A stretch of DNA of 64,000 bases from a virus (Duplodnaviria; Caudoviricetes), in IMG/VR virus record IMGVR_UViG_3300020048_003360, positions 64,001 through 128,000 of that record; one strand, 5' to 3'. The translations under genes and the position numbers were made by a program. Shown one piece after another: positions 1,620 through 64,000 of the stretch (its first letter is position 1; every line of letters begins with the position of its first letter). Below the pieces are notes generated by a model. That model did no database searches, was not told the DNA's origin, and saw only the letters and a list, made by a program, of their open reading frames with translations.

Positions 1620-3170
1620 TTATAGTGGCGTGCCGATATTCACACTGGTGTACGAGAGTGCTTTATTTTCCATTAGAGTCCGTTTTTGCTCGTGGTATTG
1701 AAGGTGCTTCGGTATATCGGTGCACACGAAATAGAGAAAGCGTGGTGTACTACCATCCTTTAATGGACGCAGTCTACCTAGAGACTGTAGATTTGCCTGA
1801 ATAGAGGATACCGCAATCGTTAAAATCACAGTACTGAGTCCTGCAATATCCACTGCAGTACCAGCTGATCCCAATGTAGAAACAGATATATCGGACGTCA
1901 TCAGACTATCAAAATCGTCCTCGGCAGTATATTTGTTTATACTCAGATTAAAATACTTTCCTCCAGAATGTGAAGAGAGTTTATCTCTTAAGTACTTTAC
2001 TACTAATTCACACATCTCAATTGAAATACAGAATATTAAGCATTTCTGATTTGGTTTATAGTACTGTAGATAAGATCCTTTAAAAGTTTCCCATATCAAA
2101 TTGAAGTAATTACTAGTTACTACTTTATCACGTAGTATTGATTGCTCAAACATATGGTGACTATAAGTAGAACTTACTCTATCTAAATGCTTTATTTTAA
2201 ATGGATCTTTAAATCTATAAAAAATAGCTGTTGATGATACATATCTCCTATAAGCCTCACCAGCATACTGTAGATGTACTGGATATACTACTCCATACAT
2301 TTTAGATATAAAAGGATCATCAGACTTTAAAGTAGCGGATAGTGAAATACTACGATAGACATTAGTGTTTAATAGGATTTTAAATGCAGCATGAAACTCC
2401 TGATGAGCCTCATCAATAAGTAGAATACCCACACCTAATAACTTACAAAAGTCTTCAGGTATGCATGCGTATCCTATTGCTGTAGTTTCATATTGAAACT
2501 TCTCATATAGTTTAATCCAATTTGATAGAGTCTTCATACTGACTAAAATTATCTTAGCAGTTAATTCTCCATTTTCAGCTGCTGATAATAAAGTCAATAA
2601 CTGACTAGATCCACGTATTACCAAAACATCATCTGGATCTATATCGTATTTTTCATTAATCTCAATTTCCCATTTTTCTAAATACATGGGTTTTACTACA
2701 ATTAATGTTCTATGTCTGATTGTGGACATTGCCTTTAAAGCGCAAATCCCCTTACCCATACCTGTCTGTAGGTTTAAAAACTTAGCAACAGGTGGACCTA
2801 CAGAAGTAAGATATTCCACTATTGGTATCTGATAGTCCCTAAGAACCCATTCGGGTTTCATTTTCAATTCTACCTGAACTGGCATTGGAAATGGAATTGA
2901 ATCATGACCAACTAAGTCATCTACTAATCCAAACCCTTTAATAAAACAAATGAATTCGGATAATTGGTTAATATGAAAACGATATTCACTACGATCCATA
3001 GTAGATGTCGCAAATACTCTTACGGGCATTTTACTATAGTTCCCACGATCTTTTACCCAATTATAATGAATAAGAGTACTCGCAAACTTATTTATAGCTT
3101 CTCTAGCCCTAGGAGTAATTTTTGTTATTTTAAAAAAGTGAGATGCTGTAGTAATCAATAGTTCTGCCAT
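1620..3170 (-). CDS. Superfamily 2 DEAD/DEAH-type helicase (phiKZ gp75-like)
   Basis: LRDYQ Q-motif, QTGMGKG Walker A, LIDEAH, SAT, QSLGRLR motif VI; next to nvRNAP beta' gene as in phiKZ-like phages. Confidence 0.88.
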   Translation of the reverse strand: MAELLITTASHFFKITKITPRAREAINKFASTLIHYNWVKDRGNYSKMPVRVFATSTMDRSEYRFHINQLSEFICFIKGFGLVDDLVGHDSIPFPMPVQVELKMKPEWVLRDYQIPIVEYLTSVGPPVAKFLNLQTGMGKGICALKAMSTIRHRTLIVVKPMYLEKWEIEINEKYDIDPDDVLVIRGSSQLLTLLSAAENGELTAKIILVSMKTLSNWIKLYEKFQYETTAIGYACIPEDFCKLLGVGILLIDEAHQEFHAAFKILLNTNVYRSISLSATLKSDDPFISKMYGVVYPVHLQYAGEAYRRYVSSTAIFYRFKDPFKIKHLDRVSSTYSHHMFEQSILRDKVVTSNYFNLIWETFKGSYLQYYKPNQKCLIFCISIEMCELVVKYLRDKLSSHSGGKYFNLSINKYTAEDDFDSLMTSDISVSTLGSAGTAVDIAGLSTVILTIAVSSIQANLQSLGRLRPLKDGSTPRFLYFVCTDIPKHLQYHEQKRTLMENKALSYTSVNIGTPL

Positions 3171-3176
3171 TATGTT

Positions 3177-3240
3177 TCCTTAAATATCAAATTACAGACC
3201 CTTAGAGGGGTCCTAAAGAGCCTGTAAGATTCTACCTACA
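3177..3240 (-). promoter_or_regulatory. Hairpin plus RBS leader, copy 1 of 3
   Basis: ttacag...ctgtaa imperfect stem followed by GTCTGTAATTTGATATTTAAGGA; homologous to 16067-16103 and 20337-20406. Confidence 0.7.
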
Positions 3241-3246
3241 CCTTTA

Positions 3247-3325
3247 CTACGGGTGATATACTAACAATTTATCGAGTGGATGGTCTGGTCTGTTAGTAAT
3301 TAAGTAAGAGTTTGGACTAGTGATA
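3247..3325 (-). pseudogene. Orphan duplicate of the last 25 codons of the nvRNAP beta' gene (ITSPNSYLITNRPDHPLDKLLVYHP*)
   Basis: 3277-3325 is identical (49 bp) to 4303-4351, then a 10-nt divergent patch, then 14 bp of further identity; no start codon. Confidence 0.9.
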
Positions 3326-3332
3326 CATCTAT

Positions 3333-4136
3333 TTAGTCTACCCAAACATAATCGTCATACTGTTCCTCAGGATTAAAAATTCTACTCAGTGCTATCTCTT
3401 TAGATAGTCCGGACTCAATAGAATACTCATTCACCGAATTATAAATAGTGTTTTTTATTATACACTGGCGTTCATACATGTCTTTTTTATAGTAATACAT
3501 AGGAAACTTTGGATCACGTAATCTTCTCCGTAATGTAGGTGATGGAATTTTTGTAGCACTAGTAGAAGCTAATAGCGACTCATATTCGACACCATCTATT
3601 ATAATCCTCACTTGCCTATCTAACCTACTCTGAATGAGTTTTGCCAGTGCTTCAGGATTATTAGCTAAGTATTTCTTTATACCGGCACTAACTCTTAATC
3701 CGGCAGTAGGATTATTCTTATAATAGTTTTTTATTGTCATACTACGAGCAAGAGATTTGGTAGAATTACTTAATGTTTTATTAGCTTTTTCTGCTGGATA
3801 TAGATTGTAGACATATGGTTCTCCAAAATACCTATTTAGTAATACGGTTTCAGCATCAAAAGCTCGTCCTTTATTAATAGTCAATGCAAAATAGAAAATC
3901 ACATGTGGATCTTTTTTATAATCTTCTTGCAGTAATCTATTTGTGTGACTACCGACTCTTAAAAACCATTTGTGTTTTTCAAATCTTTTTTTAAGATCAT
4001 TTGAATGACCAATATAGACTTTATTACTACTATGTCGGATTAGATATACTCCACTTTTTTTATCTAAATCCGACATACTTAAAAACATACCGACTGGACT
4101 AAAACTAAATTCTAAAAATATATCTATATCATGCAT
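3333..4136 (-). CDS. Free-standing GIY-YIG homing endonuclease
   Basis: SGVYLIRH...VYIGHSNDLKKRFEKH catalytic module, later E and N residues, C-terminal NUMOD1/HTH-like segments (IIIDGVEYESL). Confidence 0.85.
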   Translation of the reverse strand: MHDIDIFLEFSFSPVGMFLSMSDLDKKSGVYLIRHSSNKVYIGHSNDLKKRFEKHKWFLRVGSHTNRLLQEDYKKDPHVIFYFALTINKGRAFDAETVLLNRYFGEPYVYNLYPAEKANKTLSNSTKSLARSMTIKNYYKNNPTAGLRVSAGIKKYLANNPEALAKLIQSRLDRQVRIIIDGVEYESLLASTSATKIPSPTLRRRLRDPKFPMYYYKKDMYERQCIIKNTIYNSVNEYSIESGLSKEIALSRIFNPEEQYDDYVWVD

Positions 4137-4272
4137 ATACTACCTCATTAAATTGAATATTAGCGATCGTCGTAGGCCATGTAGACGCAGGCCACTATAT
4201 ATCATTCATAATAATGAGGCAATATATTTTATTTATTATTAGAAAATTACTTCATAATAGTAAAATATAACC

Positions 4273-6243
4273 TCATGAGTGATATACTAACAGCCTATCC
4301 AATGGATGGTCTGGTCTGTTAGTAATTAAGTAAGAGTTTGGACTAGTGATAACACGGCGGTGGGATTCAAATGCCATAGCGGCGGACAAGGATCGATTTA
4401 CCATAGTTACTTTCATTACTCCTAATTCGTTTTTAGTAAATGGTTTAGGTAAACCATAATTGTTTTCACTATCATTAATGACCATACTGGCGTAAAACAC
4501 TACATCCAATACAGCTAAATTAACATTTAGTTTATCATTAACAAGATCAAACAACTCTACTAAAGCACTATTAGCGGTCGTTAGTTTATTACGTTTCTGT
4601 AACTTCCCTACTGATGATTCTAACATTTTCGCAATGTCTGCCGAATGATCTCCCATTGAGAAATGTTTCAGTGGTAACGTAAGAATCTCTTTAGAAAAAT
4701 TCCAGTCCTTCATGTCGATTACATAATTTCCCCGTTCATTTACTACCCATCCTTTCACTTTAATATATTCTAATAAATCAGTAGTCATGCTAGCTAGTCG
4801 TTGATTTAAACTAACTACAAAACTCTCAATATGTCCATTCACCATAATACCTATTTCAGATAATTCTGAAATTCTAGTAATATTTAAATCGTTAACGTTA
4901 GCTATTTCCATAACGTCAGTAATATTACTAGCTTCATCTGCAGCTACTATTAAAAAGACTTGTTTTTGTTTCAGAGTTTCTGTTAGGAGATAAGATGATT
5001 TATCTGTCGATACTTTTAAAAACTTTGCAGCTTTATCACTTAACGTAATACCAACTACTACTGAACTCCAGTCTAAATGCTTTACTGATAAAACATTTTG
5101 ACTAGATTTTTGAGCCAGTGATGTACAGCAAATTTGACCAAGATTTGTCCTATCTGGTATTGAATAGGATAATTCACCAAAACAAGTACTACAGACACCA
5201 TAAGGATCGGGATGCTGACAATGTATGGCCATACGTAATTTTATTGTATGTCCAATTAAATGGGTGTCAGTTTTCTTAATTATCTTAAGTACCCCATCTG
5301 TATCTAAATAGTATTTACCAATTAATTGTGATAAATCTCCTTTACGCTTTAGTGTTCCGTTTTCATAAAGTGAATCACGCACATGCCATGTTAAGTATTC
5401 TTTACTACCACAATCTCCCATATGTAGGTTTTGAACTACTTGAGACATTAACTGTAGTCGTCTAGAAAAATATTCAGCTTGTTGAAGAGGGGTCTTGCTG
5501 AACATTAAGCTCTTAGCAGCTGATCGGGATTCTATAAAGGAACTATAGAAGGTACGCAGTCCAGATACATATCCAGTAGTGATTGGAATCGGAAATAATA
5601 CGCTATCTGTATCTGTAATAAAACCTCTAGCAGAAACACATTGTAGAGTCTGATCCATACTAACTAAATTACCACGAATTGCAATAGCAATTGGATTATT
5701 GGCTAGCTCACTATCATTAAGTAAACTATTCCTAACAATACTATATGTTTTATCTATTGAACTTTGTGTTGGCTCAATAGTATCATTAGCCTCTTTTATT
5801 TTTGGATAGTTCATTACATTAATGAAATCCGTTATATCGAGCGATGTAGTATGTCCCTCACATACTACGGTTAATTTATTATAGATTTCATTAGTAATTT
5901 CATATACACGTCTAGCTAACGAATCTCTAAATTCAAGTTCATTACTATACTCAGATACGTATGTATCATAAACTGCCCACATACATACTCCTAAAAGCGA
6001 TAGGTGTGTATTACTACCCAATCTACCGTTTCCAATTATAGTAGAAACATGATGTTTTGATAATAATGGAGTTCTTGGATATGTCCTATGAAAATCCCAT
6101 GCAAATGATGAGTATTGTGTTTCTCTTGCATTTGTTTCTATCTCAATACCATCATCAAATAGTAAAGTAAACGGACCTGTAAGCGTGTCAAATAGTGTTT
6201 CTGTACTAAAACACAATAATGATCTAGCTAAAATTGTACGCAT
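4273..6243 (-). CDS. Non-virion RNA polymerase beta' subunit, C-terminal part (phiKZ gp74-like)
   Basis: ESRSAAKSL, AEYFSRRLQL, DCGS, and the C...GVCSTCFG zinc motif of RpoC; synteny with beta and helicase genes. Confidence 0.88.
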   Translation of the reverse strand: MRTILARSLLCFSTETLFDTLTGPFTLLFDDGIEIETNARETQYSSFAWDFHRTYPRTPLLSKHHVSTIIGNGRLGSNTHLSLLGVCMWAVYDTYVSEYSNELEFRDSLARRVYEITNEIYNKLTVVCEGHTTSLDITDFINVMNYPKIKEANDTIEPTQSSIDKTYSIVRNSLLNDSELANNPIAIAIRGNLVSMDQTLQCVSARGFITDTDSVLFPIPITTGYVSGLRTFYSSFIESRSAAKSLMFSKTPLQQAEYFSRRLQLMSQVVQNLHMGDCGSKEYLTWHVRDSLYENGTLKRKGDLSQLIGKYYLDTDGVLKIIKKTDTHLIGHTIKLRMAIHCQHPDPYGVCSTCFGELSYSIPDRTNLGQICCTSLAQKSSQNVLSVKHLDWSSVVVGITLSDKAAKFLKVSTDKSSYLLTETLKQKQVFLIVAADEASNITDVMEIANVNDLNITRISELSEIGIMVNGHIESFVVSLNQRLASMTTDLLEYIKVKGWVVNERGNYVIDMKDWNFSKEILTLPLKHFSMGDHSADIAKMLESSVGKLQKRNKLTTANSALVELFDLVNDKLNVNLAVLDVVFYASMVINDSENNYGLPKPFTKNELGVMKVTMVNRSLSAAMAFESHRRVITSPNSYLITNRPDHPLDRLLVYHS

Positions 6244-6270: not shown

Positions 6271-6290
6271 ATAGGTAATATATTGCTATA
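6271..6290 (-). promoter_or_regulatory. Phage early-type promoter (GCAATATATTAYCTAT)
   Basis: ataggtaatatattgctata on + strand; contains the phiKZ early TATATTAC core; upstream of 4273-6243. Confidence 0.8.
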
Positions 6291-8502: not shown

Positions 8503-8550
8503 ACGTTTACTCCTTATGAAATTAATTAAATAGTACTAATCAGTACCCAT

Positions 8551-8570
8551 ATAGATAATATATTGCCATA
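8551..8570 (-). promoter_or_regulatory. Phage early-type promoter
   Basis: atagataatatattgccata, upstream of 6349-8502. Confidence 0.8.
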
Positions 8571-8588
8571 ATTTCTTTGAATAAAAAA

Positions 8589-16066: not shown

Positions 16067-16103
16067 TCCTTTAAATATTAAATTACAGACTCTCCAAGGG
16101 ATC
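16067..16103 (-). promoter_or_regulatory. Hairpin plus RBS leader, copy 2 (5' arm missing)
   Basis: GATCCCTTGGAGAGTCTGTAATTTAATATTTAAAGGA; the endonuclease stop codon falls in the loop region. Confidence 0.65.
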
Positions 16104-17052
16104 ACATATGCTTTCTAGCTAAATATGCTTTCCTAGCTGAAGACATATTAGCTCTAGCTTCAGCAGACCTAGGCTTACTCATTTTTGCGATAGCTTCAGG
16201 AGTATGTTTTCTACCAATAGTTGCTAAAGACATTTTTGCGATAGCTTCTGGAGAATGTTTTCTACCCATATGCACAGCACGCATACGTGCTTTAGCTTCT
16301 GGAGAGTTGTGATAAGCCTTCAGTTTAGCGATAGTTTCAGGAGAAAGTTTTTTACCAGTATTTGCTAACGATAATTTAGCTCTATGCTCAGGAGAAATTA
16401 TTTTACCCGTATTTACCTCACTCATACGTGCTCTATGTTCAGGAGTATTGCGATAAGCTTTCATTTTTGCGATAGTTTCGGGAGAACGTTTTTTACCAGT
16501 ATTTGCTAGTGATAGTTTTTCACGTGTTTCAGCAGACTTAGGTTTACCAGTGCGTGACTCGCTCATACGTGCCTTAGCTTCTGGAGTATTTTGATAAGCC
16601 TTCATACGCGCTTTAGCTTCTGGAGTATGTTTTCTACCAAGACTTGCTAAAGACATTTTTGCGATAGTTTCAGGAGTGCGTTTAATTCCCTGTTGCGAGT
16701 ATGCACTAGGAGCTAGATTATAAATAAAAGACTCACCGAAATACTCATCTAGTAAACTTTGTTCAACACTATGCGCTGTTTCTCTAGTGTCTACAGGCCT
16801 AACATAGTAGATTACAGTTGGGTCATTATTATAGTCCAATTGTAACGATTTGCTACGATGCATATTCCTAGAGAGGCAGTGCCTGTGGTCTTTAATTCTT
16901 TGTCTTAAATCATTAGTACTACCAATATAAAATTTACCAGTAGACACATGTTTGATCAGATAGCATCCAGGTCCATTTAGTAAGTGTCTATATTCTTTAT
17001 TACTCAATAGTGCAATTGGTACAAATCCAGTAATTATGTCATTATCTATCAT
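16102..17052 (-). CDS. Free-standing GIY-YIG homing endonuclease with about ten NUMOD3-like repeats
   Basis: GCYLIKH...FYIGSTNDLRQRIKDH; repeated (H/R/N)(T/S)PE..A(K/R)(M/L) units. Confidence 0.88.
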   Translation of the reverse strand: MIDNDIITGFVPIALLSNKEYRHLLNGPGCYLIKHVSTGKFYIGSTNDLRQRIKDHRHCLSRNMHRSKSLQLDYNNDPTVIYYVRPVDTRETAHSVEQSLLDEYFGESFIYNLAPSAYSQQGIKRTPETIAKMSLASLGRKHTPEAKARMKAYQNTPEAKARMSESRTGKPKSAETREKLSLANTGKKRSPETIAKMKAYRNTPEHRARMSEVNTGKIISPEHRAKLSLANTGKKLSPETIAKLKAYHNSPEAKARMRAVHMGRKHSPEAIAKMSLATIGRKHTPEAIAKMSKPRSAEARANMSSARKAYLARKHM

Positions 17053-17091
17053 GGTCGTTATCCTTTATGAAATAATTTAAAGTAGTTCCAT

Positions 17092-17111
17092 ATAGATAAT
17101 ATATTGCCATA
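17092..17111 (-). promoter_or_regulatory. Phage early-type promoter for the endonuclease gene
   Basis: atagataatatattgccata. Confidence 0.8.
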
Positions 17112-17122
17112 ATTTCTTTGAT

Positions 17123-20336: not shown

Positions 20337-20406
20337 TCCTCAAATATTAAATTACAGACCCTCCAAGGGGTCTTAAAGGGTCTGTAATCTCGACTACTCA
20401 CACTTC
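20337..20406 (-). promoter_or_regulatory. Hairpin plus RBS leader, copy 3 (perfect 12-bp stem)
   Basis: attacagaccct (20351-20362) pairs with agggtctgtaat (20377-20388), then TTAATATTTGAGGA. Confidence 0.75.
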
Positions 20407-20430: not shown

Positions 20431-21138
20431 TTATGGTGCTTCTAAGCCATCATTTGCTTTTTTATTAGCAAAATATGTTTTCCTAGATAAAGACATTTTA
20501 GCTCTAGCTTCGGCAGAAATTGTTTTACCACGGTGTATTGAAGATAGTTTAGCCCTACCTTCGGCAGACATTGTTTTACCATTAGCTACTAAGGCAGTCT
20601 GTATTAAAGACATTTTAGCTTTTGATTTATCAGTGTGTTTTCTACCGGTAGATTTTAAAGACATCTTAACACGTGCTTCGTCGGTGTGTTTTCGACCGGT
20701 GTGCAGCTTACTCATCCGCTCCTTAGACTCAGGTGTATTTACAAAGATCTTTATATTGGCCTTTGTAACGTCATCAAGTTTAACTCCTTTAGCTGATTTA
20801 GCACTAGGTGATTTATTATAAATAAAAGACTCACCGAAATACTTATCTAGTAAGTCCTGCTTAATACTAAACGCCTCTTCTCTAGTATTGGTAGGTTTAC
20901 AATAGCAAATTATCCGTGGATCATCATTATAGTGATGCTGTAGTAATCGACATTTATGTATATTAGTCCTAAGAAAGAAACCATTAGTCGTAATTCTTTT
21001 TCTTAGAATATTACCAATGCCAATATAATAACCGCCACTACCCAGATGTTTAACCAAATAACAACCATAACCACTTAAGTCGTCATCACTAACCTCGTTA
21101 AATAAAGTGAATCCAGTAGTTACCTCATTATCAATCAT
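20431..21138 (-). CDS. Free-standing GIY-YIG homing endonuclease with NUMOD3 repeats, paralog of 16102-17052
   Basis: MIDNEVTTGF vs MIDNDIITGF; GCYLVKH...YYIG; shared YFGESFIYN; GRKHT repeats. Confidence 0.8.
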   Translation of the reverse strand: MIDNEVTTGFTLFNEVSDDDLSGYGCYLVKHLGSGGYYIGIGNILRKRITTNGFFLRTNIHKCRLLQHHYNDDPRIICYCKPTNTREEAFSIKQDLLDKYFGESFIYNKSPSAKSAKGVKLDDVTKANIKIFVNTPESKERMSKLHTGRKHTDEARVKMSLKSTGRKHTDKSKAKMSLIQTALVANGKTMSAEGRAKLSSIHRGKTISAEARAKMSLSRKTYFANKKANDGLEAP

Positions 21139-21165: not shown

Positions 21166-21185
21166 ATAGGTAATATATTGCTATA
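21166..21185 (-). promoter_or_regulatory. Phage early-type promoter
   Basis: ataggtaatatattgctata. Confidence 0.8.
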
Positions 21186-21242: not shown

Positions 21243-21464
21243 TTAATCACAATAAAGTTGTTCCATCTTACTCAATTTTACGGGATCTATATATTCTACC
21301 GAGTGTATCCATTGACTTAAGGTTCCTACCACAGTTTTGGGAATAGAAAGATTTGTACTTACCTCCCTAGGTGAGTTTAAATCAAACACACTCTTATGTG
21401 GTGCTAGTGGACTTAATCTTTCAGCAACTTCATTATCTAGACTAAGTGTACAATTCAGTTGATC
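21243..21464 (-). CDS. Non-virion RNAP beta' N-terminal subunit, exon 2 (phiKZ gp56.1-like)
   Basis: Begins GAT CAA CTG AAT (DQLN); joining to exon 1 restores NADFDGD. Confidence 0.85.
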   Translation of the reverse strand, partial: DQLNCTLSLDNEVAERLSPLAPHKSVFDLNSPREVSTNLSIPKTVVGTLSQWIHSVEYIDPVKLSKMEQLYCD

Positions 21465-22824
21465 CGTTTCATTGTTCACATTTCTGTGTTTTTATCGCTT
21501 CTAAATTTTAAGAGCTTTTATAATGGCTGGACCCTCTATAAAAGCTTTGAGTTTTAATACATTTTCTTTTGAAAAATAAACTACAACAAATGAATCTATT
21601 CTACGCAATATCCCCGCCGCAAGTGATGTTGTCACAGCTTTTTTACTTAAACTATGTTGAATTATAAACTCTTTTGCACTAGAATGTATGTAATATAATT
21701 CATCATTAAAATTATAAGCAATTACCTCTTTAGCTCCATGTTGTTTTGCATTAATTAAATCTTCCTCATTAATTTCTGGAAAATCATCATTTACATAAGC
21801 TACTTGATATTTTTTTCTAAATAACTTAACTTTTCCATTTTGAGAAATGCTTTGATATAAATGACTTGGTGATGTATTATATTCTTTTCCAGCTACATGA
21901 AAGGATTCAAATATTTTTATATCGCCAGTATCAACATCTAAAGTTTTTATGGCTCTTTTATCTTTATATGGAGAAGTTTGTTTCTTAAGACTGTTAGGAA
22001 TGCATCCATCAAATGGTTTATGTATTAACGTTACTCCATTTAATAATTTAGAATCTTTAATAGAATCCCAAACATCTAAAACAGATACATTCAAATATCC
22101 AGCCACTTCATGTGCATTCTTATATAGTGCGAATGCAACATCATCTTTATATCCTATAATTGTTGGATATAAATTATCCATTCTCATTATTTCAGAATGA
22201 ATATTATTCTGACTTGGAGTTACCCACTCTAAGTTTTCTTTAGCGTTATTTTCTACATCTGAATCTCTGTGATTTACTTCTGTTGTTTCTTCTTTCTTTT
22301 CATGTAAAAGATGACTCAACGCAACTAATCTCTGAACGCCGAAAGTAACCCAACACCCATTGATTGTTTTAACACTTGCAGTTACATAACCATCGCCGTT
22401 CTTATACGTATTACGTTTTGTTAAGTCTGGATTATAAATATTTCCAAAATCATCAGCTAAAAAACCTAATGTTCCAGGTATTTCTTTTAATTCCATTTAT
22501 TCTCCTTAAAGTTAATAGAAGCTATTGGGGCGTTATTCCCAATCATTATTGTTGTCCAGACAATAATATCCGATACTTTCATACCGGGCGAGACTATATC
22601 TTCTACCTATTTCTAGATAGCTTTCCGTTTCGGCTCCACTTGGTAGCCTACGAGCTCACGCTCTAGTCGTTGAACTTTATCCATTTTACAGGATCTTAGC
22701 TGCTGATTGTCCAATTCTCATCATTTTCAAACATTCACGCTTGCTATTTCTAGCTACGTTGTAGTTGATGAGACTCTAAGGATATTCCAGCAATTAGAAA
22801 AGTTTATAGACAGCAATTTAACTT
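21465..22824 (-). mobile_element. Group I intron (1360 nt) inside the RNAP catalytic NADFDG|D motif
   Basis: Core elements AATTGCTGGAA, AATCAGCAG, GTTCAACGACTA, AAGATATAGTCT; P1 pairing GACGGU/GCUGUC with U.G at the splice site; terminal G at 21465. Confidence 0.92.
21501..22496 (-). CDS. Intron-encoded HNH homing endonuclease
   Basis: VQRLVA...EVNHRDSD.ENN..ENLEWVT..QN HNH module plus NUMOD1-like repeats; AAGGAG RBS. Confidence 0.88.
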   Translation of the reverse strand: MELKEIPGTLGFLADDFGNIYNPDLTKRNTYKNGDGYVTASVKTINGCWVTFGVQRLVALSHLLHEKKEETTEVNHRDSDVENNAKENLEWVTPSQNNIHSEIMRMDNLYPTIIGYKDDVAFALYKNAHEVAGYLNVSVLDVWDSIKDSKLLNGVTLIHKPFDGCIPNSLKKQTSPYKDKRAIKTLDVDTGDIKIFESFHVAGKEYNTSPSHLYQSISQNGKVKLFRKKYQVAYVNDDFPEINEEDLINAKQHGAKEVIAYNFNDELYYIHSSAKEFIIQHSLSKKAVTTSLAAGILRRIDSFVVVYFSKENVLKLKAFIEGPAIIKALKI

Positions 22825-24066
22825 ACCGTCGAAATCAGCATTAAAGCCCTTAACAATCAAAATCGATAAGGATATTGTAGGTATCAATGGATCTGTCTTT
22901 ACTTTAGTAATAAAAACAGCCTGAGCACTAGCCCTTTCTAGGCTTGGATTTCGCTGAAGAATGCAGCTTATTCCCTTATTGGGACTTTCAGCAATCAATG
23001 TTTGGAATAGTTCATCCAACAAAGAACTATACTTCTGAGCATGTTCGTTTAATAAAGCAATTGCTGAGTTTGGATTAAATCCCCTCCTTAACAACTTATT
23101 CACTAAGTGTATACGAAACACACTGATTCCAATCCCCCATGGAATATGAATCTCGTCATATTGGTGTGGTTCAGTTAGCGACGATATCACTCCCCTAAAA
23201 CTAAAGTGACTTCTAGTTCCAAAGATATGTTTTCTAAATATACCTTCCTTTTTAGCTAGAGTCGTTCTAACTAAGTCGTCGTAAAAGATTGCTAACTGGC
23301 TTATTGTTTTTACAGTTCTATTTTCCTTCATCCGAACATTGTGTGTAGACAATACTGAATCTATACCCACCATAGTTCTAATAGCGTCTACAGCACCGGT
23401 AATGATGGGATCTACATATGTACCTACATTGGTTTCCTCTATAACCAATAGCGACCTATTTGGTAGTGGTAGATATTGTGAAAATACACACTGTCGTTGT
23501 TCCTTCAGTAATAATTCTAAAGGTTCTGGCACACCACGTCTAGCTCTAAATCCCTTAATATCAAATAGCTTTGACATTATATCATCAAAGTTTTCTACAA
23601 AAGTATTCCAACCTCTAGGAATACCTAAATCCATTACTGCGTCCATAATTAAAGGTGTTTTTACTTGTGGTTTATAGATAGTGTCGGTTAGCCATCTAAT
23701 AATACTAAAACCACTACAAGTAAAATGTTCATTTAACATCGTCCACACTACTGGATTCATTAGTCCGCTAACTCCATCTGGAGCACGAATCCAAAGTATG
23801 GGGTCTAAATCACTGTCGATGGTAGATTTAACTATAGTGCGACAATTCCCACACATAACACCAACATTGTACTCCCCTACTAACTCACCACACTCACATA
23901 CCGGCACATTACTTAATAGATCGCCACTATATGTGGTATAAATTAAATTATTTATTACTTCCTTATCTCCTTCACTAGATTCTTGGAAATCATTAATGAT
24001 GATTGGTGTTTTTGTTGCTGTATTAAATAATTCTGTAAAGTTTACTAACTTCAGTGAAACACCCAT
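22825..24066 (-). CDS. Non-virion RNAP beta' N-terminal subunit, exon 1 (phiKZ gp55-like)
   Basis: C.CG...C..C zinc finger, RKHIFGTRSHFS.R.VI, QRNPSL, FNADFDG at exon end. Confidence 0.9.
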
Positions 24067-26090: not shown

Positions 26091-26110
26091 ATAGGTAATA
26101 TATTGCCATA
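26091..26110 (-). promoter_or_regulatory. Phage early-type promoter for chimallin
   Basis: ataggtaatatattgccata; short palindromes in the leader. Confidence 0.82.
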
Positions 26111-37192: not shown

Positions 37193-37212
37193 ATAGGTAA
37201 TATATTGCCATA
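37193..37212 (-). promoter_or_regulatory. Phage early-type promoter for phuZ
   Basis: ataggtaatatattgccata; perfect palindrome aacttcggccgaagtt in the leader. Confidence 0.82.
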
Positions 37213-42011: not shown

Positions 42012-42031
42012 ATAGGTAATATATTGCCATA
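42012..42031 (-). promoter_or_regulatory. Phage early-type promoter, back-to-back with late-type TTTTATG (42049-42055, +)
   Basis: ataggtaatatattgccata. Confidence 0.8.
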
Positions 42032-57906: not shown

Positions 57907-57926
57907 ATAGGTAATATATTGCCAAA
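57907..57926 (-). promoter_or_regulatory. Phage early-type promoter
   Basis: ataggtaatatattgccaaa. Confidence 0.8.
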
Positions 57927-63063: not shown

Positions 63064-64000
63064 CGATATATTCAATATGGTTCGTTAATCCATACCCGCA
63101 GCATTACCTGCAGCTCTAGCTCTCACTAGATGTCCAGACTATATCTTCACCCTCACTATATAGTGATAGGGTGTCTCCTATTTCCACTCACTTGAGTGTA
63201 CTCCCAGCTACGGGATAGTCGTTGAACGTTCTCCATAGAGCAGAGGGTGGTTTACACCACTCTCCATCTTACAGGAGCTTCGCTGCTGATTGTCTCTATT
63301 TGATTCTTTTCAAACCTTCATAATCTCTTTTCAGGATTATTGTGGTGAATCAACTTAAACGAGAGTTTCCAGCAATTAAAGAGAAAACTAATTGATTATT
63401 ACTAATCAATAGGACTATTGTGAGGTATTTCTTCCTTAAATAACCAACCATGGTGAGATTTACCAGAATGAAGTTTTTCTTTTAAGGTTCTTTTATCAAT
63501 CGAGAGATAACCAACTAACTTTCTAATGCTATTAAATTTTAATACTTCAGCTGTATTTAAATTAGTCGCTATAATCTTTCTAGGTGCAGTATAGACAGTA
63601 GATTCATATTCTGCTGGCCATTTATCTTCACACTTTATACGAAAAATATAGTTTTGACAACATTTTGGTTTAGTTGATCGCAATGCATTCAGGATTCTTT
63701 CTTCAGAAATTTTTGTTTCTTTGGTTAGAATCTTAATTGTATTTCCCTCAATTATAGATCCGGTTTTAATATTGTAAGCTTGGTATGGTCCTTTTAAACG
63801 AAGAACCTCATCACGGTTTAATTTTGAGTAATACCACTCACCTGAGTCATCGGCTAACTTTATTTCATATCGATTTAGAAATAAAATTGGAATATTACTA
63901 CTGCCTATGCTTCTAGAGATTTTTTTACTCTTTGACGTTAATCCAATTTTAGATAACGCAAGACCAATTGATGGGAATGATGTTTCTTGTCCAGTATCTA
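63064..64000 (-). mobile_element. Group I intron in vRNAP beta (5' part beyond the window)
   Basis: AATTGCTGGAA, AATCAGCAGC, GTTCAACGACTA, GAAGATATAGTCT core elements within about 63130-63380. Confidence 0.9.
63402..64000 (-). CDS. Intron-encoded endonuclease, C-terminal part (5' truncated)
   Basis: Frame is open from 63998 to the stop at 63402; NUMOD1-like repeats DTGQETSFPSI, NIKTGSIIEG, NLNTAEVLKFNSI; catalytic domain not in the window. Confidence 0.7.
   Translation of the reverse strand, partial: DTGQETSFPSIGLALSKIGLTSKSKKISRSIGSSNIPILFLNRYEIKLADDSGEWYYSKLNRDEVLRLKGPYQAYNIKTGSIIEGNTIKILTKETKISEERILNALRSTKPKCCQNYIFRIKCEDKWPAEYESTVYTAPRKIIATNLNTAEVLKFNSIRKLVGYLSIDKRTLKEKLHSGKSHHGWLFKEEIPHNSPID

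What the first reader, a model, noticed from the sequence alone, without database searches (positions are those of the whole stretch)
3247..4351. GIY-YIG element inserted in the 3' end of an essential RNAP gene, supplying a replacement C-terminus
Seen: the last 25 codons of the nvRNAP beta' gene occur twice, 1026 bp apart, on either side of the endonuclease. There is 49 bp of identity, then a 10-nt patch recoded mostly synonymously (TTG GAT AGG C vs CTC GAT AAA T), then 14 bp of identity. Endings are ...DRLLVYHS* (functional) and ...DKLLVYHP* (orphan). Inference: an intron-less homing element invaded coding sequence without splicing by carrying its own copy of the gene end, as integrative elements restore tRNA ends. 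The recoded patch may protect against self-cleavage, and the direct repeat would allow precise excision.
Basis: partly seen in the sequence, partly recalled or inferred. Interest (0 to 1): 0.72.

Follow-up and report, generated by a model that had tools for sequence, protein, structure and literature searches.

The report
Homing endonuclease flanked by duplicated gene end
A selfish DNA-cutting enzyme gene sits at the very end of an RNA polymerase gene of a giant phage, between two copies of that gene's last 24 codons, so the gene stays whole; this layout is known from fungal mitochondria but seems little described in phages.

Summary
A 73-nt direct repeat (3253-3325 and 4279-4351, spacing 1026) brackets a 267-aa GIY-YIG gene (3333-4136, minus strand). 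It reads 49 identical nt, a 10-nt patch with 5 changes, then 14 identical nt.

- **Context:** the gene lies between the phiKZ gp74-like RNA polymerase beta' gene and the gp75-like helicase. Copy A completes beta' (...DRLLVYHS*). Copy B (...DKLLVYHP*) has no upstream frame.
- **Not an artefact:** three independent assemblies give the same sequence, and the shared 49-mer has higher depth.
- **Not an intron:** Rfam finds nothing here but does find two other introns in the window.
- **The enzyme:** the catalytic domain is I-TevI-class, by sequence and by fold.
- **Relatives:** all other relatives join beta' directly to the helicase with one gene end. The closest endonuclease homologue (38%) sits just after beta' in another phage, without a duplication.

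Its polarity does not yet hold. The only near relative (about 96% identical, a 398-nt contig) carries the functional-copy patch beside the helicase flank, not the orphan's. All three GIY-YIG genes of this genome share a 3' hairpin/RBS module, and the orphan lies between the ORF and that module.

The closest known parallel is the mobile endonuclease ORFs ("gene hybrids") of fungal mitochondria. Earlier notes of this scan report similar cassettes on other DNA. I class it as a new variant of a known kind.

The parts
4273..6243 (-). RNA polymerase beta'-like gene (phiKZ gp74 equivalent), 656 aa plus stop
   Evidence: phrog_3015 E 5.7e-184, residues 1-652 on profile 2-648/653. PhiPA3 match lies just upstream of the gp075-like helicase.
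4279..4351 (-). repeat copy A: in-frame end of beta' (residues 632-655), followed by TCA TGA
4293..4302 (-). 10-nt patch in copy A (TTG GAT AGG C; L D R L); contains a CNNNG (CATTG)
4137..4272 (-). spacer upstream of the endonuclease. It holds promoter-like motif AATATATTGCCT at 4217-4228. A 16-bp stem pairs 4212-4227 with 4135-4150, covering the SD GAGG and the first two bases of the AUG.
   Evidence: motif: 7 matches in the window, all minus strand, 0.11 expected. Fold z = -3.2, 0 of 200 shuffles as stable.
3333..4136 (-). GIY-YIG homing endonuclease gene, 267 aa plus stop
   Evidence: Pfam GIY-YIG 38.8 bits against cut-off 22.6. I-TevI catalytic domain 1MK0 E 1e-5. Foldseek 1LN0 E 7e-5, TM 0.77 by target. 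C-terminus aligns to the ends of homologues.
3247..3325 (-). orphan copy B (3253-3325) plus its own last codon and stop (CCG TAG, 3247-3252); starts 7 nt after the endonuclease stop, in another frame
3267..3276 (-). 10-nt patch in copy B (CTC GAT AAA T; L D K L); no CNNNG
3171..3246 (-). hairpin plus RBS module before the helicase ATG (core 3182-3212); shared with the two other GIY-YIG genes
   Evidence: three matches in the 208-kb record, each just downstream of a GIY-YIG gene, none elsewhere. Fold.
1620..3170 (-). SF2 helicase gene (phiKZ gp75 equivalent)
   Evidence: ResIII E 3.3e-5, phrog_16 E 1e-35; PhiPA3 068 annotation

Best explanation
A free-standing, I-TevI-class GIY-YIG homing endonuclease gene has been inserted at the extreme 3' end of the gp74-like RNA polymerase beta' gene of a phiKZ-like jumbo phage. 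The insertion is bracketed by a 73-bp direct duplication of the gene's last 24 full codons. The upstream copy, with a new last codon and stop, keeps the gene whole. The downstream copy is an untranslated orphan between the endonuclease stop and the hairpin/RBS leader of the helicase. Shown: the anatomy, the enzyme class, the intact beta' gene, and presence/absence of the insertion among relatives. Inferred origin: the enzyme, or a relative of it, cut an endonuclease-free genome near the 5' edge of what is now the repeat; three overlapping CNNNG motifs end 2 nt upstream of that edge in copy A. The beta' side of the break invaded a template that had the endonuclease just after beta', as in locus L014. 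It copied gene end, spacer and endonuclease. The new strand was then joined without homology to the other broken end, which still carried the recipient's own gene end. That needs one illegitimate junction, 7 nt after the endonuclease stop. The 10-nt patch marks two once-coding alleles and probably overlaps part of the recognition site. Today each copy lacks one part of the native site: copy B its upstream context and every CNNNG, copy A the native downstream flank. That would spare the carrier genome. Expression looks I-TevI-like: in read-through beta' transcripts the RBS is locked in a stem whose 5' arm overlaps the cassette's own promoter-like motif. Which copy came with the element is about even odds.
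For: Repeat and frames. Gene identities. Enzyme class. Same sequence in independent k=141 assemblies and higher depth of the shared 49-mer. No ribozyme here, while two group I introns are found elsewhere in the window. Relatives join beta' directly to the helicase with one gene end. The closest full-length homologue (38%) sits directly after the beta' C-terminal piece in L014, with a 120-nt spacer and no duplication. So each half of the present locus is collinear with an arrangement seen elsewhere. Mismatches are clustered (P about 6e-4). Five nt changes give one conservative aa change (7-11% of random base choices at those positions, 1% at random positions). That pattern suits two coding alleles. 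CNNNG positions. Promoter-like motif and RBS stem. Precedents: illegitimate one-sided double-strand-break repair in T4 (Parker, Belisle and Belfort 1999, from memory; its title is cited in PMC2988022) and fungal mORF gene hybrids (PMC3630166).
Against: The two copies are identical at 63 of 63 positions outside the patch. So donor and recipient must have been near-identical there. In that case homology on the helicase side should also have been available and a one-sided repair was not forced. Otherwise later gene conversion must be assumed. The near relative's copy beside the helicase flank carries the copy-A patch at 4 of 5 positions, and R is the commonest residue in the family. Both make the orphan's patch look derived rather than original. 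The hairpin/RBS module downstream of copy B is shared by all three GIY-YIG genes and occurs nowhere else in the genome. That suggests it belongs to the cassettes, which would put copy B inside a cassette, not outside it. No cleavage data exist.
Confidence: 0.6

Rival explanations
1. Origin within one genome. The endonuclease cassette (promoter, ORF, hairpin/RBS module) first lay cleanly between beta' and the helicase. A break-induced segmental duplication at microhomology, of the kind SegB promotes, then partly collapsed, or another rearrangement placed a second copy of the gene end between ORF and module. The orphan's patch changed afterwards, perhaps under selection to lose a cleavage motif, because copy B alone keeps the native downstream flank.
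For: It explains the 63 of 63 identity outside the patch without a near-identical donor. It explains why the module follows all three GIY-YIG genes. It explains why the near relative and the family consensus match copy A's patch. The CNNNG at 22 nt from the repeat's 3' edge is present in copy A and, read from the base changes, in the near relative's allele; it is lost in copy B. That spacing is close to I-TevI's 23/25 nt (from memory). SegB-driven tandem amplification with microhomology junctions is documented (PMC13096335). One assembly (L011) shows an endonuclease-to-beta' junction at an 11-nt microhomology.
Against: It needs two events, a duplication and a precise loss of the second spacer plus ORF. 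Unconstrained change in an orphan would rarely give four silent-type changes and one conservative change. No tandem form was seen in the contigs.
Confidence: 0.25
2. The endonuclease lies in a self-splicing intron, or the 1026 nt are otherwise removed from the mRNA, so that the downstream copy is the real gene end.
For: Group I introns with HNH genes do interrupt other RNA polymerase genes in this same window.
Against: No Rfam match at E up to 1 in 2500-5500, while the same library finds two group I introns elsewhere in the window at 89 and 77 bits. Copy A already gives a full-length protein ending where relatives end. The endonuclease has its own promoter-like motif and RBS.
Confidence: 0.02
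3. Assembly artefact: a repeat mis-joined by the assembler.
For: The Logan k=31 graph does branch at the 49-nt core.
Against: Three assemblies of different samples at k=141 give the identical 4.7 kb. The endonuclease unitig has the same depth as its flanks (39.4 against 40.4 and 41.4), and the shared 49-mer has 67.6.
Confidence: 0.01

Closest known systems
Mobile endonuclease ORFs (mORFs) making 'gene hybrids' in fungal mitochondria: Allomyces macrogynus atp6; Glomus sp. atp6, atp9 (GIY-YIG), cox2, nad3 (PMC3630166)
   Same: An endonuclease ORF sits in the 3' part of a host gene. The C-terminal coding segment is duplicated on both sides. The upstream copy is in frame and completes the gene; the downstream copy is stranded about 1 kb away.
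   Different: There the inserted C-terminus is clearly foreign (64-81% to the native copy) and the native copy matches the ORF-less sister species. Here the copies are 93% identical, and the one near relative matches the functional copy at the patch. There the ORF is often fused in frame to the host gene. Here it is a separate gene with its own promoter-like motif and RBS. The host is a phage, not an organelle.
Free-standing Seg (GIY-YIG) and Mob (HNH) endonucleases of T-even phages; intronless homing (PMC2988022)
   Same: The enzyme class and the free-standing position between essential genes. The target presumably lies in the neighbouring gene. Spread is by double-strand-break repair with co-conversion of flanks.
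   Different: That review describes no duplication of the target gene end ('duplicat' has zero occurrences in its text). Seg and Mob genes lie in spacers or overlap neighbours rather than being bracketed by a repeated gene end.
I-TevI of phage T4
   Same: Catalytic domain by sequence (1MK0, E 1e-5) and by fold (1LN0, TM 0.77). The RBS is sequestered in read-through transcripts while a promoter lies inside the hairpin region (inferred; the I-TevI regulation is from memory and PMC2988022).
   Different: I-TevI lies in a group I intron; here there is none. The C-terminal half has no Pfam match and only a weak likeness to the I-TevI DNA-binding domain (1I3J, E 1.1).
PhiPA3 gp210, an intron-encoded HNH endonuclease in a virion RNA polymerase gene (PMC11620839)
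   Same: A homing endonuclease aimed at an RNA polymerase gene of a phiKZ-like jumbo phage. It could likewise harm co-infecting relatives that lack it.
   Different: Different nuclease family, intron-borne, different RNA polymerase gene, no duplicated gene end.
SegB-driven segmental amplification in phage T6 (PMC13096335)
   Same: A free-standing GIY-YIG endonuclease promotes duplication of its own neighbourhood through microhomology.
   Different: There whole tandem units of tRNA gene plus segB are amplified. Here a single 73-nt gene end is duplicated around one endonuclease gene.

Membership tests
GIY-YIG homing endonucleases (I-TevI class) | GIY-YIG catalytic domain with its conserved Tyr, Tyr, Arg, His, Glu and Asn | tested here: met
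   Pfam PF01541 38.8 bits against cut-off 22.6. Alignment to I-TevI 1MK0 shows GVY, YIG, the R and the H. E96 is invariant and N111 nearly invariant among homologues. The predicted fold matches 1LN0 with probability 1.0 and TM 0.77.
GIY-YIG homing endonucleases (I-TevI class) | separate C-terminal sequence-specific DNA-binding region joined by a linker | tested here: inconclusive
   The model shows a low-confidence linker (residues 117-126) followed by two strand-strand-helix-helix units (178-207 and 225-254). There is no Pfam family. Likeness to the I-TevI DNA-binding domain is weak (E 1.1).
GIY-YIG homing endonucleases (I-TevI class) | optional presence at a fixed site among related genomes | tested here: met
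   Absent from the same junction in FLC9, PhiPA3, L012/L013 and L025-L028. A 38% homologue lies directly after beta' in L014.
GIY-YIG homing endonucleases (I-TevI class) | cleaves the endonuclease-free allele near its own insertion site | not testable with these tools
   No biochemical data. Only CNNNG positions could be noted.
Fungal mitochondrial mORF gene hybrids | endonuclease ORF flanked by a duplicated C-terminal coding segment, with the upstream copy in frame | tested here: met
Fungal mitochondrial mORF gene hybrids | the downstream (native) copy matches ORF-less relatives better than the inserted copy does | tested here: not met
   The 398-nt contig of a relative about 96% identical matches copy A at 4 of 5 differing positions. 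It is one relative only, and its endonuclease status is unknown, so the test is weak.
Intron-encoded homing endonuclease (group I intron) | ribozyme core around the ORF, with exons that join to give the full gene | tested here: not met
   No Rfam match in 2500-5500 at E up to 1. Positive controls are found at 22570-22871 and 63114-63465. The gene is complete without splicing.
Integrase-type integrative elements that restore a gene or tRNA 3' end | a site-specific recombinase gene and att-type repeats | tested here: not met
   The 1026-nt insert holds a single ORF of 40 aa or more, the GIY-YIG gene. The likeness is in outcome only.

The most novel reading that the evidence does not exclude
The duplicated gene end is a working part of the cassette, not just a scar. 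The enzyme would have a two-part site, and the carrier genome would stay safe because each copy keeps only one part: copy A the cleavage context, copy B the downstream flank with its cleavage motif recoded. The orphan would serve further as a homology arm for reversible excision, or as an operator or decoy for the enzyme. The three GIY-YIG genes, with their shared terminator/RBS module, would form a composite cassette family that moves within and between jumbo phages and carries the regulatory end for the next gene.
Probability: 0.15. Interest if true: 0.7.

Novelty: new variant of a known kind. Interest (0 to 1): 0.5.

Why it matters
Free-standing homing endonucleases of phages are usually described as sitting in spacers, and those inside genes as needing an intron or intein. 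This locus shows a third route in a phage: invading coding sequence while leaving a complete gene, by duplicating the gene's end. Fungal mitochondria offer the known parallel. The two nearly identical copies differ only in a 10-nt patch, so they give a ready-made pair of substrates for mapping what this enzyme recognises. The target is a subunit of the phage's own RNA polymerase. In phiKZ-like phages such enzymes can act as weapons against co-infecting relatives (PMC11620839). Earlier notes of this scan report similar cassettes in other phages and archaea, so the route may be common but overlooked.

Tried and rejected
- **Closer relatives.** megablast against the phage collection found nothing. 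The best IMG/VR protein loci are 47% identical. JGI metagenome contigs gave nothing by protein pattern or by a 38-nt exact pattern. IMG/VR gave nothing for the module or the core. The 90% clusters hold no variant proteins. So no element-free genome closer than 69% aa could be aligned across the junction.
- **Excised form.** No contig joins across the 1026 nt. Contigs drop rare variants, so this says nothing either way.
- **The near relative (run X5).** Only one 398-nt contig was laid, at depth 2.5. It ends inside the repeat, so whether that relative has the endonuclease is unknown.
- **K residue as a marker of endonuclease-bearing genomes.** K occurs in L014 (with endonuclease) and in L025 (without), so there is no link.
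- **A decayed beta' end behind the third GIY-YIG gene (reading LLAFR**).** The local alignment scores no better than shuffles (473 of 500 as good). Rejected.
- **Foreign composition of the insert.** GC is 0.316 for the ORF against 0.336-0.345 for its neighbours; this is not telling.
- **Consensus scans.** The sigma-70 promoter and intrinsic terminator scans gave nothing above shuffles.
- **Word-based protein search for the endonuclease.** It returned only one weak hit; the exhaustive HMMER search was needed.
Full report
**Observation.** All genes here run on the minus strand. The repeat finder reports one 73-nt direct repeat, 3253-3325 and 4279-4351, 93% identical, 1026 nt apart. In gene orientation it reads 49 identical nt, a 10-nt patch with five differences, then 14 identical nt. 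Copy A is in frame with the 656-aa ORF 4273-6243 and ends ...PLDRLLVYHS*. Copy B reads ...PLDKLLVYHP* but has stops shortly upstream in its frame. The repeat covers residues 632-655 plus one base; the last codon and the stop differ between copies. Only three exact direct repeats of 30 nt or more exist in the window. Five mismatches within 10 of 73 positions has P about 6e-4.

**The repeat is real.** Two further ENA assemblies from other samples of the same study are 100% identical over 4701 nt. They were built with k=141, longer than the 49-nt identical core. In Logan contigs (k=31) the graph breaks at the core. The collapsed 49-mer has depth 67.6, against 41.4, 39.4 and 40.4 for helicase side, endonuclease and beta' side.

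**Genes and genome.**
- The 656-aa ORF matches phrog_3015 (RNA polymerase subunit) at E 5.7e-184 over its whole length.
- The ORF upstream of it has an Rpb2_6 domain, and the ORF downstream of the insert is an SF2 helicase.
- In PhiPA3 the match lies at the end of the feature annotated as similar to phiKZ gp071 and following genes, directly before the gp075-like helicase.
- The window belongs to a 208-kb IMG/VR virus record rated 78% complete.
- The best named relative is Burkholderia phage FLC9 at 52% aa. The best metagenomic relative is 69%.

**The endonuclease.**
- ORF 3333-4136 (267 aa) passes the Pfam GIY-YIG threshold (38.8 against 22.6 bits).
- It aligns to the I-TevI catalytic domain with the GIY, YIG, Arg and His positions kept (1MK0, E 1e-5).
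- An AlphaFold model (mean pLDDT 80.6) matches that domain (1LN0, probability 1.0, TM 0.77 by target).
- After a low-confidence linker the model has two strand-strand-helix-helix units. They have no Pfam family and only a weak likeness to the I-TevI DNA-binding domain.
- The protein ends where its homologues end.
- It is not intron-borne. Rfam finds nothing in 2500-5500 at E up to 1, though it finds two group I introns elsewhere in the window.

**Relatives.** beta' is followed directly by the helicase, with a single gene end, in FLC9 (143-nt spacer), in the 69% relative (87-nt spacer), in PhiPA3 and in L025, L027 and L028. In L026 a 66-aa ORF lies between them. The exhaustive HMMER search gives one full-length close homologue of the endonuclease, P0125 (38%, E 1e-39). 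It lies in L014 directly after a 117-aa piece that is the C-terminal end of beta'. There the gene is split by a 462-aa ORF with weak, sub-threshold HNH and NUMOD1 matches. L014 has a 120-nt spacer and no flanking duplication. So this endonuclease lineage is found just after beta' in two distant phages, and the duplication is peculiar to the window's phage.

**Which copy is the original.** Three lines of evidence bear on this, and they do not agree.
- *Coding constraint.* The five nt differences change one residue, conservatively (R to K). Only 7-11% of random base choices at those positions do as well, and 1% at random positions. That suits two alleles that both once coded. The orphan is otherwise undecayed, so the event is recent or the copies are kept alike by conversion.
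- *The near relative.* A 398-nt contig from a microbial-mat run of another study covers 2919-3317 at about 96% identity. It is contiguous with the helicase start and its leader. It has 3267G, 3268C, 3269C and 3274C, the copy-A states, and keeps G at 3276. Its last codon reads CAA. The contig ends inside the repeat at depth 2.5, so its endonuclease status is unknown.
- *The family.* R is the commonest residue at that position. K occurs in L014 (with endonuclease) and L025 (without).

It is not refuted either.

**Cassette features.**
- *Promoter-like motif.* AATATATTACCT occurs seven times in the window (one match with G for A), all in gene orientation, against 0.11 expected. It lies before beta' and the third GIY-YIG gene; near-identical versions lie before beta and the second GIY-YIG gene. 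The endonuclease studied here has the one-base variant at 4217-4228.
- *RBS stem.* The 5' leader folds into a 16-bp stem that pairs 4212-4227 with 4135-4150, covering the Shine-Dalgarno GAGG and the first two bases of the AUG (z = -3.2). A transcript reading through from beta' would hide the RBS. One started at the cassette's own motif would lack the 5' arm. This is the logic described for I-TevI and mobE (PMC2988022); here it is inference.
- *Shared 3' module.* Following a lead from earlier notes of this scan, I confirmed a hairpin-plus-RBS module (core 3182-3212). It occurs exactly three times in the 208-kb record, each time directly after one of the three GIY-YIG genes. At this locus the orphan lies between the ORF and that module. 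The modules are far more alike than the ORFs, which are 26-28% identical over full length. I cannot explain this fully.

**Mechanism.** The left half of the locus (gene end, spacer, endonuclease, 7 nt) is collinear with L014. The right half (gene end, hairpin/RBS leader, helicase) is collinear with every endonuclease-free relative. One illegitimate junction joins the two halves. This fits a double-strand break in an endonuclease-free genome, repaired by homologous invasion on the beta' side and end joining on the other. T4 intron homing with one exon missing behaves this way (Parker, Belisle and Belfort 1999, from memory; cited in PMC2988022). Three overlapping CNNNG motifs, the I-TevI cleavage motif, end 2 nt before the repeat's 5' edge in copy A and are absent near copy B.

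The main difficulty is the 63 of 63 identity outside the patch. The shared module adds to it. Both suit a rival: an origin within one genome by break-induced segmental duplication, as SegB promotes in T6 (PMC13096335), with later recoding of the orphan. The orphan has lost the CNNNG that lies 22 nt from the repeat's 3' edge in copy A. One assembly (L011) has a junction from the endonuclease back into beta' at an 11-nt microhomology, which may be such a rearrangement or a chimera. In both models each present copy lacks part of the native site. That is a simple way for the carrier genome to escape its own enzyme.

**Comparison and novelty.** The architecture equals the mORF 'gene hybrids' of fungal mitochondria (PMC3630166), including one GIY-YIG case. 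It differs in that the ORF is a separate, self-promoted gene and the two copies are nearly identical. The T4 review describes no duplicated gene ends for Seg or Mob genes, and my literature searches found no phage example. Earlier notes of this scan describe similar cassettes in other phages and archaea; I did not check them. I rate this a new variant of a known kind, of moderate interest.

Noticed in passing
window 21243-24066 (-): A second RNA polymerase gene (phrog_2987) is split exactly in the NADFDG|D catalytic motif. The 420-aa ORF 22804-24066 covers profile positions 1-422 and ends NADFDGKLNCCL*. The 78-aa ORF 21243-21479 covers 422-476 and contains DQLNCTL. Between them lie an Rfam group I intron (22570-22871, 89 bits) and an HNH gene (21501-22496).
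   Followed up: partly
window 63114-63465 (-): A second group I intron at gathering level (76.9 bits).
   Followed up: no
window 16073-16103, 20342-20372 and 3182-3212 (-): All three GIY-YIG genes of the 208-kb genome (3333-4136, 16102-17052, 20431-21138) are followed by the same hairpin-plus-RBS module, found nowhere else in the genome. The copy after the third gene folds strongly (19-bp stem, z = -4.7). The copy studied here is imperfect (z = -0.9). The modules are much more alike than the ORFs.
   Followed up: partly
window 4217-4228, 6273-6284, 21168-21179, 26093-26104, 37195-37206, 42014-42025, 57909-57920 (-): Motif AATATATT[A/G]CCT occurs seven times, all in gene orientation (0.11 expected). 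It is probably a phage promoter. 34 nt upstream of the second GIY-YIG gene (17088-17121) are identical to the region upstream of the RNA polymerase beta gene (8547-8580).
   Followed up: partly
L011:4523-4668 (ENA assembly ERZ27262924): The contig runs from beta' through copy A into the endonuclease gene. At window position about 3822 it jumps back into beta' (window about 4864 downwards) at the 11-nt microhomology AAATAGGTATT. This is either a tandem-duplication variant of about 1046 nt or a chimeric contig.
   Followed up: partly
L014:1081-4880; L026:602-4357: In a clade of related phages the beta' gene is in two pieces (about 546 aa and 117 aa), separated by a 462-aa ORF with a weak HNH match and a weak NUMOD1 match. 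Whether an intron is present was not checked. In L014 a TnpB (OrfB_IS605) gene lies two genes after the GIY-YIG gene.
   Followed up: no
window 16179-16742 (-): The second GIY-YIG gene contains four tandem 141-nt units made of 51-nt and 39-nt subrepeats. They encode a repeated short motif in its C-terminal half; the third gene has a shorter array (20490-20698).
   Followed up: no
window 3019-3274, against a contig of run X5: Against the 96% relative, differences are scarce in the helicase coding part (3 in 252 nt). They are dense in the leader and gene end (13 in about 147 nt). So there is a local hot spot of divergence next to the endonuclease.
   Followed up: partly
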